62,849 bases of DNA from an uncultured Bacilli bacterium (GCA_947589675.1 CANQCI010000002.1:1-62849); one strand, 5' to 3'. Shown: positions 27,549-46,359, numbered from the stretch's first letter. The notes: generated by a model not told the origin, from the letters alone. Numbers and translations: made by a program.

Positions 27549-27578
27549 TTGCAAGGTGCTAGCTTATCGTATTATAAT
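27549..27578 (+). promoter_or_regulatory. SigA-type promoter of the nine-gene type A block (TTGCAA-18-TATAAT)
   Basis: -35 at 27549-27554 and consensus -10 at 27573-27578, about 100 nt upstream of the ATG at 27681. Confidence 0.6.
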
Positions 27579-27611
27579 TAATAATAGGATATGATAATAC
27601 AAGAATTAATA

Positions 27612-27629
27612 TTGGCATAATTTGGCATA
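27612..27629 (+). promoter_or_regulatory. Two direct TTGGCATA repeats spaced 10 bp (candidate operator)
   Basis: TTGGCATA at 27612-27619 and 27622-27629, between the promoter and the first gene of the block, next to the RHH gene. Confidence 0.4.
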
Positions 27630-27680
27630 TTTTAGGGAAATTTTTTAGTTTTGAAATTAAAAATGGGAGTAGTGATTAAA

Positions 27681-29756
27681 ATGAAGAAAAAAGAAAAAAT
27701 TTTAATGTTCTTTACATTAATAGTTCTTTTGGTAGTAGTAATTGGTGCCACTTATGCTTTCTTTGCTGCTCAAAGGGGTACTGGAGGTAATGCTAATATT
27801 AATGTAGAAGCCGGAACGACTGATTCATTAACATTTACGAAAGGAAACCCCATTACCATTGATGCTAATAGTGATAATTTTAAAAGTGGTGAACCTAATC
27901 AGGAAGGGGACACCACCGTGTCAGCTCACTTAGTAGCTAACAATGGCAATTATACAGCAAGTGAAACTTATAATGTTTATTTAAATTTAATAAATAATCC
28001 ATTTGTTTACACAAAAACTGATAATCCCGAGTTAATATTACAAGTAATAGACCCAGAAGGACACCCTTTAGAAGCTTTAGAAGACACATCAATAAAGCAT
28101 GTATCACTTAATGATGTTGATGATGATGAAAATCCATTGGAAGGATTTGATATAACAACAGCCACAGGTTTAATCCCAATTAAGTTAAATGAACCAATAG
28201 AAGCTACTCCAAGTGAAGATGATAGAAATGGTAAAGCTGATGAAGAATGGCAAATAAAAATAATACTTATAAACCATGACTATGATCAACAAGTAAATAC
28301 GGGTAAAACTTTTAATGCTCAAGCTATCATAACAGCTGGAACCTTACCAAATGTTAAAGTTGAAACAGCTAATATAACAAATGATAGTATGAAAGTAATA
28401 GCAACCATTTCTGATTACGAAGATACGATTGATAAGGTCGAATTTAAGATTAATGACGATGTAGATAAAGAATGGCATCAAGCAACAGATAATAATTTAA
28501 ATGTTTATAGTTATACTTTTGATAATTTAACAGAAAATAAAAAATATGAAGTTAGTACCAAGATAAGTTTTGCTGATTCCGAAGTATTAAAGGTAATTGA
28601 AGAAAGCATATCAGCTAAAAAGACTTTAGCTGATGCTTGTCCCAACGGAGGTAACTTAGCTGAGTGTGTTATTAGCTTATATAATAAAAACAGTAACTAT
28701 GAAGATACCAAATTATATTATCATGATAATAATTTAGAAAATGGTGCCAATGATTTATCTTACCGATACACTGGAGGAGATTATGCTTTAACCGATATAG
28801 CTAAAGAAAGTTATAGTTCTATAAATGATTTGATTAAGCTAAGTTGTAATGGAATTGCATCTCCAAATAGTAATGATTATTGTTCAACAGTATCAAAATA
28901 TACATTAAGTTATAATCCTGATTTAGAAAATTTAACAACTTTAAAGCAAACTTTAAAGCAAGCAATAACTGATGGATATATAACTGATAATAATATCAAA
29001 AACTATGTTTGTTTTGGAGGAGAGTGTACCGATAAAGAAAATCTCTACCGGATAATTGGAACATTCAAAGTAGAAGATGAATATCAAATAAAGCTTGTAA
29101 AGGCTGATGAGGTTGATAAAACTTTACTTGGTGAAGATGGGGATTTTGCAAGACAAAATTCGCAAAATGCTTATAATAATTATTTAGGGAAACATTATGA
29201 TCAACCAAGATATGCTTGGAATAAAAATGGTGTGAATACGTGGAGTGAAAGTAAATTAAATACTGAAAATTTAAATACATTTTATCTTGATAAGTTAGGT
29301 GATTGGGCGAATAAAATTGCTGAAACAGCATGGCAAGTGGGAGGTATGTCCCAAAATATTGGATATGAACAAGATGTCCATACGGCTTATGAATATGAAT
29401 TAGGTGATTCAAAGAAAACTTTAACGTATTCAGGTCAAATAGGTTTAATGTATGTTAGTGATTTTTATTATGGTGCACCAAAAGATTATTGGAGTTTGCC
29501 AGGTGGTGATACTGTATCTGGTGAAGATTATCGGCTAGCCGCTTGGGATAATTGGTTATGGCTTGGTGACAATGAATGGTTTATTACCCCAACTGAAAGC
29601 ACTACAGAAGCATTTCGTACTAGTACAGTTGGAAATGTACTTAAGGTTATAGTTACAAGTGATTACTATGCTGCCCGTCCAGCATTTTATCTAAACAGTA
29701 ATGTAAGTTATATAAGGGGAACAGGAACAAGTGATGACCCAATAATAATAAGTTAA
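27681..29756 (+). CDS. Family paralog A2 (type A)
   Basis: MKKKEKILMFFTLIVLLVVVIGATYAFFAAQRGTGGNANINVEAGTTDSLTF. ATG at 27681 follows gggag. The upstream in-frame TTG 27651 and ATG 27663 lack an SD. Conserved type A C-terminus ...AARPAFYLNSNVSYIRGTGTSDDPIIIS. Confidence 0.9.
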   Translation: MKKKEKILMFFTLIVLLVVVIGATYAFFAAQRGTGGNANINVEAGTTDSLTFTKGNPITIDANSDNFKSGEPNQEGDTTVSAHLVANNGNYTASETYNVYLNLINNPFVYTKTDNPELILQVIDPEGHPLEALEDTSIKHVSLNDVDDDENPLEGFDITTATGLIPIKLNEPIEATPSEDDRNGKADEEWQIKIILINHDYDQQVNTGKTFNAQAIITAGTLPNVKVETANITNDSMKVIATISDYEDTIDKVEFKINDDVDKEWHQATDNNLNVYSYTFDNLTENKKYEVSTKISFADSEVLKVIEESISAKKTLADACPNGGNLAECVISLYNKNSNYEDTKLYYHDNNLENGANDLSYRYTGGDYALTDIAKESYSSINDLIKLSCNGIASPNSNDYCSTVSKYTLSYNPDLENLTTLKQTLKQAITDGYITDNNIKNYVCFGGECTDKENLYRIIGTFKVEDEYQIKLVKADEVDKTLLGEDGDFARQNSQNAYNNYLGKHYDQPRYAWNKNGVNTWSESKLNTENLNTFYLDKLGDWANKIAETAWQVGGMSQNIGYEQDVHTAYEYELGDSKKTLTYSGQIGLMYVSDFYYGAPKDYWSLPGGDTVSGEDYRLAAWDNWLWLGDNEWFITPTESTTEAFRTSTVGNVLKVIVTSDYYAARPAFYLNSNVSYIRGTGTSDDPIIIS

Positions 29757-44481: not shown

Positions 44482-44499
44482 AAGAAAGGAAAGAATTAA

Positions 44500-46323
44500 A
44501 TGGAAAAGAAAAATACACCTTTAATAATATTAAGTATATTTATATTTTTAATTATTATATTTAGTGCAACATATGCTTATTTTCAAGCCCAAAGAGATAC
44601 TGATGCTAGTGCTGAAATTAACGTAACAACAGAAACAACAGATTCTCTTTCTTTCAATACAACTGATGCTATTAGTATTATGCCAACCATGACTTCATTT
44701 GCCTCAGGAACTGGTAACCAAAATGGGGAAACAAAAGCCACAGCAACACTAAGAGCCAATAGTAAAACTCATGAAGCTGTTGCTAATTATTATGTGTATT
44801 TAAAAATAACTAAGAATGAATTTACCTATTCAACTCCTGATAAAAAGCCAGAGTTAATTTTAACTATAACAGACCCAGATGGAAAAGTTTTGGGTGAAGA
44901 TAGTCCTTATAAAATAAATGGATATGACTTTAAAAATGTAACAACAAATGTTAATGAAAGTGATAGCCAAGAAGTAAAAGGATATGACGTCACCGAAGCT
45001 CATGGTTTATTAACAATTGCCTATGATAAAGAAATTGATGTAACAGTGACTGATGAACCAAATGGCGAAAAAAGCGAAGAATGGAAAGTGATTTTAACCC
45101 TTATCAATTTAGATTCAGACCAACAAATAAATACTGGAAAGCATTTTAATGGAGAGTTATTAATTCAAAAAGAAGAAATAGATGTAACCATAGCTGATGA
45201 AGCTATACCTAATGAACCACTTACTCAAGCAGTTATTAATCTATGGAATAATCTTTCCTATGAAGAAAGTAAAATAATCAAACATGATGGTAGTGATGCA
45301 AATGATGCTAATGACCAAAGTTATAGATACACTGGTGGAGATTATGCTTTAACCTCATTAGCTTTAGAAAAAGAATATCAATCTATTAATGATATTATTA
45401 AATTAACATGTGGTGATGTAGCCTCAGAAATTGCTAATGATTATTGTGCATCAGGAGCAAAATATACATTAGATTATAACGATGATTTGCAAGAAGAGTT
45501 TACTACTTTAAAAGCCGTATTAACTAAAGCAATAGAAGATGGTTATATATCCGATAATAATGTTAAAAACTATGTTTGTTTTGGTGAAGAGTGCACATCT
45601 AATAAAGATAATTTATATCGCATAATTGGTGCTTTTCAAGTCGAAGAAGAATATCAAATAAAATTGGTAAAAGCTGATATTGCTGGCAAAGAACAATTAG
45701 GTGAAGAAGGTAATTATGCAATCCGCGATAGTACAGCTTATAACACTTATTTGGGAAATCATAATGAATGGCCAAGATATAAGTGGGATGCAAATGGAAC
45801 AAATAGTTGGAGTGAAAGTGCTCTTAATAAAGAAAATTTAAACACATTTTATCTTAATAAATTAGGTGATTATGCAGATAAAATAGCTATGATGCAATGG
45901 CAAGTGGGTGGAATGACTTATCCTTTGGGTCATGAGCAAGGTGCACATACGGCTTACATAAATGAATTAGGTGATTCCAAAACCATTTCAAGTTACTCTG
46001 CTCAAATTGGCTTAATGTATGTTAGTGATTATTATTATGGAGCTACAAAAGACCGTTGGATTTTACCTGGATTTGTTTCTGATGGCAATGATTATCGCAA
46101 AGCAGCATGGGATAATTGGACATGGATTGGTGATGATTTTTGGTTTATAACGCCAAGTACAAGTGCTTCAACACATGCGTTTCTTGTTAGTACATATGGG
46201 CATGTACATACATTTTCTTCGGCAGATGATAGTCGAGCAGCCCGTCCAACATTCTATCTTAACGGTAATGTCAAATATGTATCTGGGACTGGCACAGAAA
46301 GTGATCCAATAATTATAAATTAG
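44500..46323 (+). CDS. Family paralog A10 (short, divergent type A lacking the Ig/FN3-like middle module)
   Basis: 607 aa. Divergent leader MEKKNTPLIILSIFIFLIIIFSATYAYFQAQRDTDASAEINVTTETTDSLSF. The segment of about 95 aa with VKVET..ISDYED..KKYEVSTK and the ACP..G..L..C pair is absent. The C-terminal domain is conserved. Confidence 0.9.
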   Translation: MEKKNTPLIILSIFIFLIIIFSATYAYFQAQRDTDASAEINVTTETTDSLSFNTTDAISIMPTMTSFASGTGNQNGETKATATLRANSKTHEAVANYYVYLKITKNEFTYSTPDKKPELILTITDPDGKVLGEDSPYKINGYDFKNVTTNVNESDSQEVKGYDVTEAHGLLTIAYDKEIDVTVTDEPNGEKSEEWKVILTLINLDSDQQINTGKHFNGELLIQKEEIDVTIADEAIPNEPLTQAVINLWNNLSYEESKIIKHDGSDANDANDQSYRYTGGDYALTSLALEKEYQSINDIIKLTCGDVASEIANDYCASGAKYTLDYNDDLQEEFTTLKAVLTKAIEDGYISDNNVKNYVCFGEECTSNKDNLYRIIGAFQVEEEYQIKLVKADIAGKEQLGEEGNYAIRDSTAYNTYLGNHNEWPRYKWDANGTNSWSESALNKENLNTFYLNKLGDYADKIAMMQWQVGGMTYPLGHEQGAHTAYINELGDSKTISSYSAQIGLMYVSDYYYGATKDRWILPGFVSDGNDYRKAAWDNWTWIGDDFWFITPSTSASTHAFLVSTYGHVHTFSSADDSRAARPTFYLNGNVKYVSGTGTESDPIIIN

Positions 46324-46330
46324 AAGTATT

Positions 46331-46359
46331 AAAAAAGTCATGATAAGTGGCTTTTTTTT
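46331..46359 (+). terminator. Rho-independent terminator closing the type A block
   Basis: aaaaagtca/tggcttttt stem (one G-U pair) with a 7-nt loop and a long T-run. It is the first terminator-like structure after 27262. Confidence 0.65.

What the first reader, a model, noticed from the sequence alone, without database searches (positions are those of the whole stretch)
27549..46359. Nine type A genes form an 18.7-kb head-to-tail block with 16-22 bp spacers, individual SD sites and no internal terminators
Seen: the spacers between consecutive stops and starts are 20, 16, 20, 17, 18, 22, 20 and 18 nt. Each contains a GGTG/GAGG-type SD. Three junctions are the identical string aaataataaggtggtgaaga (A2/A3, A4/A5, A8/A9) and two share aatgtgatggtgaaac (A5/A6, A6/A7). 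I found one good promoter (27549-27578) before the block and one terminator (46331-46359) after it. Inference: all nine paralogs are probably co-transcribed. That differs from one-at-a-time antigenic variation and fits a heteromeric assembly or a simultaneously displayed repertoire. The repeated junction classes show that the duplication unit is a whole gene plus its spacer.
Basis: partly seen in the sequence, partly recalled or inferred. Interest (0 to 1): 0.65.

Follow-up and report, generated by a model that had tools for sequence, protein, structure and literature searches.

The report
Nine-gene operon of lectin-like surface proteins
An uncultured gut bacterium carries nine intact, tightly packed copies of one exported, lectin-like protein gene, probably read as a single transcript, which most likely gives the cell a ready-made set of different binding heads rather than a switchable coat.

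Summary
Nine same-strand paralogs (27681-46323) are separated by 20, 16, 20, 17, 18, 22, 20 and 18 nt. Each spacer has an SD. Three junctions are identical and two nearly so.

The best promoter-like site lies upstream and an 11-bp hairpin with a U-tract lies downstream. No convincing internal terminator, invertible promoter or slippery repeat was found. Co-transcription is plausible but untested.

Each protein has:
- an N-terminal hydrophobic helix with a SipW-like motif;
- a conserved beta-sandwich N-module with no Pfam family (dN/dS about 0.1);
- an FN3 domain, missing in the last copy;
- a 370-aa C-terminal domain whose predicted fold matches DUF6273 (C-type-lectin-like) domains of the Thomasclavelia ramosa IgA peptidase and of gut phage proteins.

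Variation peaks in a C-terminal beta-hairpin. The copies are old (dS 0.7-1.0), all intact, and mosaic through recombination between paralogs.

In related MAGs spoIIP abuts lepA. Here 31 kb of family genes lies between them, so this is a lineage-specific expansion. A divergent RHH gene upstream recurs next to family genes in two other MAGs.

Best reading: a co-expressed repertoire of lectin-like surface binders. The heteromeric-fibre idea is not excluded, and nothing tested here supports it. Interest is moderate.

The parts
27324..27497 (-). 57-aa ribbon-helix-helix (HicB/CopG-like) gene, divergent from the array. Candidate regulator.
   Evidence: Pfam HicB 5.8e-6, plus Antitox_RHH and RHH_5. 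Homologues sit in the same divergent position about 110-150 nt upstream of a family gene in L008 and L072.
27549..27578 (+). Sigma-70-type promoter-like site, TTGCAA-18-TATAAT, about 100 nt upstream of the first ATG.
   Evidence: 10/12 match. It lies in the divergent intergenic region between the RHH gene and the first type A gene.
27681..29756 (+). The ORF caller starts at the TTG at 27651.
29777..31855 (+). Type A paralog (A3), 692 aa.
   Evidence: Its FN3 region shares a 202-nt identical tract with A6.
31872..33953 (+). Type A paralog (A4), 693 aa.
33974..36064 (+). Type A paralog (A5), 696 aa.
36082..38163 (+). Type A paralog (A6), 693 aa, and the modelled copy. Layout: TM helix 3-32, low-confidence linker 23-46, N-module about 47-220, FN3 about 225-310, lectin-like C-domain about 315-693, hypervariable hairpin about 640-665.
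   Evidence: AF2 model, pLDDT 85.7. Variability map.
38182..40260 (+). Type A paralog (A7), 692 aa.
40283..42373 (+). Type A paralog (A8), 696 aa.
   Evidence: Present in the independent contig L080.
42394..44481 (+). Type A paralog (A9), 695 aa.
44500..46323 (+). Last paralog (A10), 607 aa. It has no FN3 domain. Its N-module is only 42% identical to A6 but its C-domain is 63% identical. This architecture resembles the widespread ~600-aa relatives in other MAGs.
   Evidence: AF2 model, pLDDT 86.7. Foldseek hits.
46331..46359 (+). Intrinsic-terminator-like hairpin (11 bp, A/U-rich) followed by Us. It sits between the array and lepA.
   Evidence: centroid -9.3 kcal/mol, z = -2.9. (the only clean hairpin with a T-run in the block).
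15847..17925 (+). It heads a second tight cluster with three GLUG-type N-module genes.
   Evidence: The 21-nt spacer aaaaggagatggtggtgaaga precedes the gene at 17947.
17947..27143 (+). Three genes with the same N-module but GLUG-repeat (and LamG) C-termini: 17947-20790, 20809-23561 (split by a frame break) and 23688-27143.
   Evidence: Pfam Glug and Laminin_G_3. TIGR04088 SipW-type signal at 25.5 bits. Split ORFs.

Best explanation
The block is a lineage-specific, tandemly expanded operon of nine paralogous exported proteins.

Each protein is built from:
- a hydrophobic N-terminal helix carrying a conserved GATYA[YF]F-AQ motif, either a SipW-like signal peptide or a signal anchor;
- a strongly conserved beta-sandwich N-module shared with at least five other genes in the window, which presumably serves export, anchoring or assembly;
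- an FN3 spacer;
- a large C-terminal domain with a DUF6273 / C-type-lectin-like fold that acts as the ligand-binding head.

Proposed working:
- The nine genes are most likely transcribed together from the promoter at 27549-27578, perhaps controlled by the divergent RHH protein.
- Transcription most likely ends at the hairpin at 46331-46359.
- Each cistron is translated from its own strong SD, 3-9 nt upstream of its ATG.
- The cell thereby makes nine binding heads at once. They differ mainly in a C-terminal beta-hairpin. The result is a germline-encoded, simultaneously available repertoire of lectin-like binders for host, dietary or microbial surface ligands.
- The repertoire arose by duplication and divergence under purifying selection, with repeated recombination among the copies.

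Shown: gene layout, spacers and SDs; intactness and selection; mosaicism; predicted folds; the insertion relative to related genomes.

Inferred: co-transcription, export and processing, the binding function, and RHH control.
For: Layout
- Nine same-strand ORFs with 16-22 nt spacers and SDs.
- Promoter-like site upstream and terminator hairpin downstream.
- No enrichment of internal promoter-like or terminator-like sites.

Selection
- dS is 0.7-1.0 between copies.
- dN/dS is 0.10 in the N-module (0.02-0.07 over codons 15-75), 0.27 in FN3 and 0.22-0.25 in the C-domain.
- Local pN/pS peaks of 0.6-0.7 occur. All copies are intact.

Variability
- It is concentrated at A6 residues about 640-665, two beta-strands just before the invariant RP-FYL strand.

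Fold
- AF2 models reach pLDDT 85.7 and 86.7.
- The best PDB match of the FN3-less copy is the T. ramosa IgA peptidase 9qa6: E 8.6e-7 over 314 columns. Its residues 31-322 are described as DUF6273 (PMC12402451).
- BFVD matches include several DUF6273 phage proteins, E 1.5e-5 to 1e-3.
- 4 of 54 family members hit Pfam DUF6273, best 1.1e-5.
- DUF6273 is C-type-lectin-like and is a DGR-diversified receptor-binding domain in phages (PMC10743442).

N-module
- It is shared at 42-50% identity with the GLUG, LamG and Gly-rich proteins of the window.
- It is always N-terminal in 910 clusters at 50% identity.
- The SipW-type signal model passes its cut-off for two sibling genes.

History
- Mosaicism: PHI-type statistic 0.528 against 0.603 +/- 0.005.
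- Synteny: spoIIP abuts lepA in L015, L043 and L062, but the two are 31 kb apart here.
- RHH homologues lie divergently upstream of family genes in L008 and L072.
Against: - There are no transcript or protein data, so co-transcription over 18.7 kb is an inference from layout.
- Seven + strand 10/12 promoter-like matches lie inside the block. Those at 33637 and 35748 are about 300 nt upstream of the next gene.
- The terminal hairpin is A/U-rich and weak, and the standard scan misses it.
- The window copies do not hit Pfam DUF6273.
- PDB profile searches find no relative by sequence.
- The Foldseek output does not show which residues of 9qa6 are aligned. Placing the match on its DUF6273 N-terminal domain is an inference from the aligned length.
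- No ligand is known for any DUF6273 domain in a cellular protein.
- Type A N-termini fall below the TIGR04088 cut-off, at 8.8-16.2 against 19 bits. No signal peptidase gene is in the window.
- The order of A2-A7 rests on one assembly. Identical tracts of 92-202 nt between copies could allow chimeric joins in a short-read assembly.
Confidence: 0.55

Rival explanations
1. Heteropolymeric fibre or surface lattice. After cleavage of the SipW-like signal, the conserved N-modules of the nine paralogs, and perhaps of the GLUG-type siblings, polymerise with each other, for example by donor-strand complementation as in TasA. One filament or layer would then display a mixture of lectin-like heads. Co-transcription would serve the stoichiometry of one structure.
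For: - The N-module is the most conserved part (70% invariant columns, dN/dS 0.02-0.10). It is shared by proteins with unrelated C-termini, as expected of an assembly or docking module.
- A SipW-type signal is detected in sibling genes.
- Residues 23-46, between the helix and the first strand, have pLDDT below 50 in both monomer models. A donor strand would look like this.
- TasA fibres form by donor-strand exchange (PMC9674648, listed).
Against: - No sequence or fold match of the N-module to TasA, camelysin or BsaA: Pfam, PDB profiles, Foldseek top 50.
- No sipW or tapA-like gene in the window.
- No multimer prediction could be run.
- The conservation is equally explained by a common anchoring or export function.
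Confidence: 0.15
2. Variable-expression family. The copies are not all made together. Internal promoters, attenuation or occasional recombination between copies would change which heads are produced, giving population-level antigenic or phase variation.
For: - There are clear traces of recombination among copies and identical tracts up to 202 nt.
- Promoter-like hexamers lie inside upstream coding sequence at homologous positions in several copies.
- Tandem arrays of surface protein paralogs often serve variation in Mycoplasmatota, to which the related MAGs are assigned (and general knowledge).
Against: - Every copy has its own ATG and SD and an intact frame, under purifying selection.
- dS of 0.7-1.0 shows the exchanges are old, not ongoing cassette switching.
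- No inverted repeats around the promoter, no homopolymer or SSR, and no invertase, recombinase or RT gene seen in the window (not every ORF was scanned against Pfam). No template repeat.
- The internal promoter-like motifs coincide with conserved codons (LADACP, KIGMMYV-DYYY) and are not enriched over shuffles.
- Three samples carry a 100% identical 3' part of the array.
Confidence: 0.12
3. The array is partly an assembly artefact. Fewer real copies would have been multiplied or chimerised by a short-read metagenome assembler.
For: - Paralogs share identical tracts of 60-202 nt.
- Other samples' contigs break inside the array (L080-L082).
Against: - Copies differ by 17-29% in nucleotides along their whole length, far too much for collapsed or duplicated repeats.
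- All nine frames are intact.
- Three independent contigs reproduce A8-A9-A10-lepA at 99.97-100% identity.
Confidence: 0.03

Closest known systems
DUF6273 (PF19789) C-type-lectin-like domains: the N-terminal domain of Thomasclavelia ramosa IgA peptidase (PDB 9qa6) and DGR-targeted phage receptor-binding proteins ('tentaclins')
   Same: - The predicted fold of the ~370-aa C-terminal domain matches 9qa6 (E 8.6e-7) and several DUF6273 phage proteins.
- Some family members hit the Pfam model.
- Variability is concentrated in a C-terminal beta-hairpin, the kind of element that DGRs diversify in this fold (PMC10743442).
   Different: - The window copies are below Pfam detection.
- The domain is C-terminal on a cellular exported protein with a family-specific N-module.
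- Diversity is stored as nine germline paralogs, not generated by a reverse transcriptase. There is no RT and no template repeat in the window.
SipW-dependent matrix proteins (TasA, CalY/camelysin, BsaA; TIGR04088 signal)
   Same: - N-terminal K-rich, hydrophobic stretch ending in G-A-T-Y-A-[YF]-F and followed by AGTTDSL. This resembles the GGT-[FW]-A-x-F and AGTLDL pattern (my recollection of TasA and CalY).
- TIGR04088 passes its cut-off for the sibling genes at 17947 and 60527.
- These are secreted proteins of Bacillota.
   Different: - Type A signals score below the cut-off.
- The N-module is not detectably homologous to TasA or Peptidase_M73 in sequence or fold.
- No sipW gene is nearby.
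- The proteins are 3-4 times larger and carry a lectin-like head.
Co-transcribed tandem paralogs of Gram-positive surface proteins with a common module and variable part, such as the Listeria internalin operons (inlGHE) and the Clostridioides difficile cwp cluster (general knowledge; CWB2 proteins in PMC4973711, listed)
   Same: - Several paralogs in a row on one strand with short spacers.
- A shared targeting or scaffold module plus a divergent functional part.
- Mosaic evolution by recombination between paralogs.
   Different: - Different protein folds, with no LRR, CWB2 or LPXTG.
- Nine copies in one apparent 18.7-kb transcription unit is unusually long.
- The organism is an uncultured gut Bacilli/Mycoplasmatota-like lineage.
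Variable surface protein arrays of Mycoplasmatota (vsp, vlp, vsa; general knowledge)
   Same: - Tandem arrays of paralogs with a conserved N-terminal export region and variable remainder, in a related low-GC lineage.
   Different: - Those systems express one or a few copies at a time, through invertible promoters, site-specific recombination or repeat slippage.
- None of these elements is present here. All copies carry their own translation signals.

Membership tests
DUF6273 (PF19789) | Match to the Pfam HMM at or above the gathering score | tested here: not met
   No hit for the window copies even at E <= 10. 4 of 54 relatives hit at E <= 0.01, best 1.1e-5. P0072 scores 22.9 bits against a cut-off of 23.5.
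DUF6273 (PF19789) | C-type-lectin-like fold shared with proteins annotated as DUF6273 | tested here: met
   Foldseek of the A10 model: 9qa6 at E 8.6e-7 over 314 columns. BFVD DUF6273 proteins at E 1.5e-5 to 1e-3, TM(target) up to 0.67. The annotation of 9qa6 residues 31-322 as DUF6273 comes from PMC12402451. The aligned residues are not printed, so the domain assignment of the 9qa6 match is inferred.
SipW-dependent signal peptide proteins (TIGR04088) | HMM score of at least 19 bits on the N-terminus | tested here: inconclusive
   Type A copies score 8.8-16.2 bits, below the cut-off. Siblings with the same N-module score 25.5 bits (17947) and 19.8 bits (60527).
SipW-dependent signal peptide proteins (TIGR04088) | A cognate SipW-type signal peptidase in the genome | not testable with these tools
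   None is in the 62.8-kb window. A motif scan of the flanks of 79 related loci found none, but that is a weak regex test. The rest of the genome is not available.
TasA / camelysin (Peptidase_M73) fibre proteins | Sequence or fold homology of the mature domain to TasA | tested here: not met
   No Pfam hit. No PDB sequence-profile hit at E <= 10. No TasA entry among the top 50 Foldseek matches.
Polycistronic operon | Same strand, short intergenic distances, own RBS per cistron, no internal terminator | tested here: met
Polycistronic operon | A single transcript covering all cistrons | not testable with these tools
   No expression data are available.
Phase- or antigenic-variation locus | A switching device: invertible promoter with inverted repeats and a recombinase, slippery repeats, or silent cassettes lacking start signals | tested here: not met
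   Only A/T-rich low-complexity inverted repeats lie around the promoter. No homopolymer of 8 or more lies in the block. All copies have an ATG and an SD. No recombinase ORF was seen.
Diversity-generating retroelement target | A reverse transcriptase plus a template repeat near-identical to the variable region | tested here: not met
   No copy of any C-terminal 260 nt lies outside the family genes. No RT-like ORF was seen among the window's ORFs. Only this window was tested.

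The most novel reading that the evidence does not exclude
The nine genes, and the sibling genes that share the N-module, encode subunits of one heteropolymeric surface fibre or lattice in a wall-reduced gut Bacilli lineage. The undescribed N-module would polymerise after SipW-like processing, and each subunit would present a different DUF6273 lectin head. The operon would then be a hard-wired, co-expressed counterpart of DGR diversification: a combinatorial adhesive organelle of a new structural class.
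Probability: 0.1. Interest if true: 0.75.

Novelty: new variant of a known kind. Interest (0 to 1): 0.42.

Why it matters
The related MAGs belong to uncultured gut Bacilli and Mycoplasmatota-like lineages, and I know of no description of their cell surfaces.

This family has an N-module with no Pfam model: 910 clusters at 50% identity, always N-terminal. It appears to be a major part of their exported proteome, with fifteen members in this 63-kb window alone.

If the nine lectin-like heads are made together, the locus shows a second way to obtain binding diversity on the DUF6273 fold. Phages diversify this fold with retroelements. Here the diversity would be a stored paralog repertoire.

The locus also offers nine natural variants of one scaffold for ligand screening, for example against glycans, mucins or immunoglobulins, given the similarity to the IgA peptidase domain.

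If the reading is wrong, it remains an ordinary, lineage-specific expansion of hypothetical surface proteins.

Tried and rejected
- Pfam and NCBIfam on whole proteins and on separate domains gave no family for the type A copies.
- PDB sequence-profile searches returned only noise from antibody light chains.
- Foldseek with the full-length A6 model was swamped by FN3 matches. I therefore modelled the FN3-less copy A10, which exposed the DUF6273-like match.
- The TasA-like reading of the N-module, my first guess from the signal motif, got no support from any search.
- Looking up the contigs of the closest non-window relatives P0002 and P0007 found nothing. Cluster names were empty.
- A metagenome scan for close relatives of A6 found nothing. 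No second strain or sister species with an orthologous array could be compared.
- The genome scan found relatives only at 48% identity or less. In 79 loci the gene is nearly always single, with two tandem pairs at most.
- Rfam found nothing in the window, so no riboswitch or leader was detected.
- Searches for invertible-promoter repeats, slippery tracts and a DGR template repeat were negative.
- A regex scan for signal peptidase I motifs next to family genes was negative, but it is a weak test.
- Literature searches for this family in RF39-like bacteria, or for SipW-type paralog arrays, returned nothing relevant.

Full report
**1. The observation**

The ORF list and direct extraction show nine + strand ORFs from 27651/27681 to 46323.
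- The 20-mer AAATAATAAGGTGGTGAAGA is identical at junctions 1, 3 and 7. AATGTGATGGTGAAAC is shared by junctions 4 and 5.
- Seven spacers hold GGTG or GAGG. The last holds AAGGAAAG.
- The first gene most likely starts at the ATG at 27681, which aligns with the other copies.
- Three metagenome contigs from other samples are 99.97-100% identical to 40275-47231. They confirm A8-A9-A10-lepA.

**2. Transcription signals**

- TTGCAA-18-TATAAT at 27549-27578 is a 10/12 match.
- It is not unique. Seven further + strand 10/12 matches lie within coding sequence, mostly at homologous positions that encode conserved peptides. Promoter-like sites as a whole are fewer than in shuffles (88 against 108 +/- 10).
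- The spacers are too short to hold a promoter.
- Terminator-like sites equal the chance expectation (8 against 7.7). The single + strand internal hit is a 6-bp stem inside the codons for AARPAFYL.
- The consensus scan misses the hairpin at 46331-46359 because its stem has few G-C pairs. It folds as an 11-bp stem followed by Us: centroid -9.3 kcal/mol, z = -2.9. In a relaxed scan it is the only clean hairpin with a T-run in the block.
- Rfam finds nothing in the window.
- No inverted repeats that could flank an invertible promoter are present. No homopolymer of 8 or more is present.
- The layout is therefore that of one operon. This remains an inference.

**3. The proteins**

- Pfam and NCBIfam give no family for the type A copies.
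- The AlphaFold2 model of A6 (120-sequence alignment, pLDDT 85.7) shows:
  - an N-terminal helix, residues 3-32;
  - a low-confidence linker, residues 23-46;
  - a beta-sandwich N-module, about 47-220;
  - an FN3 domain, about 225-310;
  - an alpha/beta C-domain, about 315-693.
- Foldseek with this model returns only FN3 matches.
- The last copy, A10, lacks FN3. Its model (pLDDT 86.7) matches the Thomasclavelia ramosa IgA peptidase 9qa6 best, at E 8.6e-7 over 314 columns.
- The authors of that structure describe its residues 31-322 as DUF6273 (PMC12402451). The Foldseek output does not print the aligned residues, so placing the match on that domain is an inference from its length.
- In the viral library several 'DUF6273 domain-containing' gut phage proteins match, at E 1.5e-5 to 1e-3.
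- Four of 54 family members hit Pfam DUF6273, best 1.1e-5. The window copies do not.
- DUF6273 has a C-type-lectin-like fold and is a DGR-diversified receptor-binding domain in phages (PMC10743442).

**4. The N-terminus**

- The motif is K-rich, then hydrophobic, then GATYA[YF]F-AQ-G-GG ... AGTTDSL.
- It resembles SipW-dependent signals. TIGR04088 passes its cut-off for the siblings at 17947 (25.5 bits) and 60527 (19.8 bits). The type A copies fall below it, at 8.8-16.2 bits.
- The N-module itself has no Pfam family. It shows no sequence or fold match to TasA or camelysin.
- It is shared at 42-50% identity with five other genes of the window, which carry GLUG repeats, LamG, an ALK/LTK-type glycine-rich domain or a related lectin-like domain.
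- Among 1.84 billion representatives it occurs in 910 clusters. It is always at the N-terminus, in proteins of about 160-1000 aa.

**5. Evolution of the copies**

- A2-A9 are 70-81% identical in protein and 74-83% in DNA. A10 is 52-55% identical in protein.
- Synonymous divergence is 0.7-1.0, so the duplications are old.
- dN/dS is 0.10 in the N-module (0.02-0.07 over codons 15-75), 0.27 in FN3 and 0.22-0.25 in the C-domain, with local pN/pS peaks of 0.6-0.7.
- The most variable stretch is A6 residues about 640-665. These are two beta-strands just before the invariant RP-FYL strand.
- The copies are mosaics. The nearest neighbour changes from segment to segment. A PHI-type compatibility statistic is 0.528 against 0.603 +/- 0.005 in permutations, p < 0.0005.
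- A3 and A6 share a 202-nt identical tract.
- A10 combines a distant N-module (42% to A6) with a type A C-domain (63%).
- The junction motif GGTGGTGAAGA-ATG-AAAAA also precedes the GLUG gene at 17947. It therefore belongs to the 5' end of the N-module, or is kept by selection for translation initiation, and is not a marker of a 'type A gene plus spacer' unit.
- No copy of the variable region lies outside the genes. No RT ORF was seen in the window. A DGR is therefore not involved here.

**6. Genomic context**

- The relatives come from uncultured gut 'Bacilli' or 'Tenericutes' MAGs, such as Clostridium sp. CAG:609, Firmicutes bacterium CAG:460 and Candidatus Pelethosoma (Mycoplasmatota incertae sedis).
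- In 79 loci from these genomes the N-module plus lectin-like architecture is almost always a single gene, with only two tandem pairs.
- In three MAGs whose LepA is 79-82% identical, spoIIP is followed directly by lepA, a SpoIIID-like gene and hemW.
- In the window, spoIIP (14419-15417) and lepA (46399-48195) are 31 kb apart. The gap holds A1, three GLUG-type genes, the RHH gene and the nine-gene block. The block is therefore a lineage-specific insertion and expansion.
- The 57-aa RHH gene (27324-27497, minus strand; Pfam HicB 5.8e-6) diverges from the array promoter. Homologues occupy the same position upstream of a family gene in L008 and L072. This suggests a dedicated regulator.

**7. Interpretation**

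- The best-supported reading is a co-expressed repertoire of exported lectin-like binders on a common N-terminal module (confidence 0.55).
- The heteromeric fibre idea is not excluded, but no search supports it (0.15).
- One-at-a-time variation is unlikely, because no switching device is present and all copies are intact with their own translation signals (0.12).
- An assembly artefact is very unlikely (0.03).

Caveats:
- There are no expression data.
- The order of A2-A7 comes from a single assembly.
- The binding function is inferred by analogy.

Noticed in passing
window 14419-15417 and 46399-50280, compared with L015, L043 and L062: spoIIP, lepA, a SpoIIID-like gene and hemW are adjacent in three related MAGs. 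In the window 31 kb of N-module family genes separates spoIIP from lepA, a lineage-specific insertion or expansion at a conserved housekeeping site.
   Followed up: yes
window 27324-27497 (-); L008 9712-9894 (-); L072 9660-9851 (-): A small RHH (HicB/CopG-like) gene sits divergently just upstream of a family gene in three unrelated genomes. It is possibly a dedicated regulator. A direct repeat TTGGCATA-N2-TTGGCATA, read by eye in the sequence at about 27613-27630, lies between the promoter and the first ATG.
   Followed up: partly
window 20809-21066 and 21099-23561 (+): A GLUG-type family gene is split into an 85-aa N-terminal piece and an 820-aa remainder. This is a frame break or small deletion, so either a pseudogene or a sequencing error.
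   Followed up: no
window 3-3296, 17947-27143 and 60527-62404 (+): Five further genes share the same N-terminal module but carry other C-termini: Ig-like repeats plus a related lectin-like domain, GLUG repeats, GLUG plus LamG, and an ALK/LTK-type glycine-rich domain (Pfam 9.2e-48). With the ten type A genes, that makes fifteen family members in 63 kb.
   Followed up: partly
window 44500-46323 (+): The last copy is chimeric. Its N-module is only 42% identical to A6, its C-domain is 63% identical, and it has no FN3. It resembles the ~600-aa form common in other MAGs and may be the ancestral resident.
   Followed up: partly
L086 4494-6464 (ENA ERZ27059539): A dispersed type A copy (about 75% identical to A6) lies downstream of an ABC transporter. 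It ends in a premature stop while DNA homology continues for about 100 nt, so it is probably a decaying copy elsewhere in the same or a closely related genome.
   Followed up: no
window 51320-51625 (+): A YafQ/ParE-type type II toxin gene (Pfam 2.1e-27). No antitoxin partner was examined.
   Followed up: no
window 48182-49192 (+): A 336-aa protein with a SpoIIID-like HTH at its N-terminus lies between lepA and hemW. It is conserved in this position in related MAGs.
   Followed up: no
window 23562-23687: A hairpin, AAAAACACTAT...ATAGTGTTTTT, lies in the 126-nt gap before the gene at 23688. It is a likely terminator that splits the upstream A1-GLUG cluster into two units.
   Followed up: no
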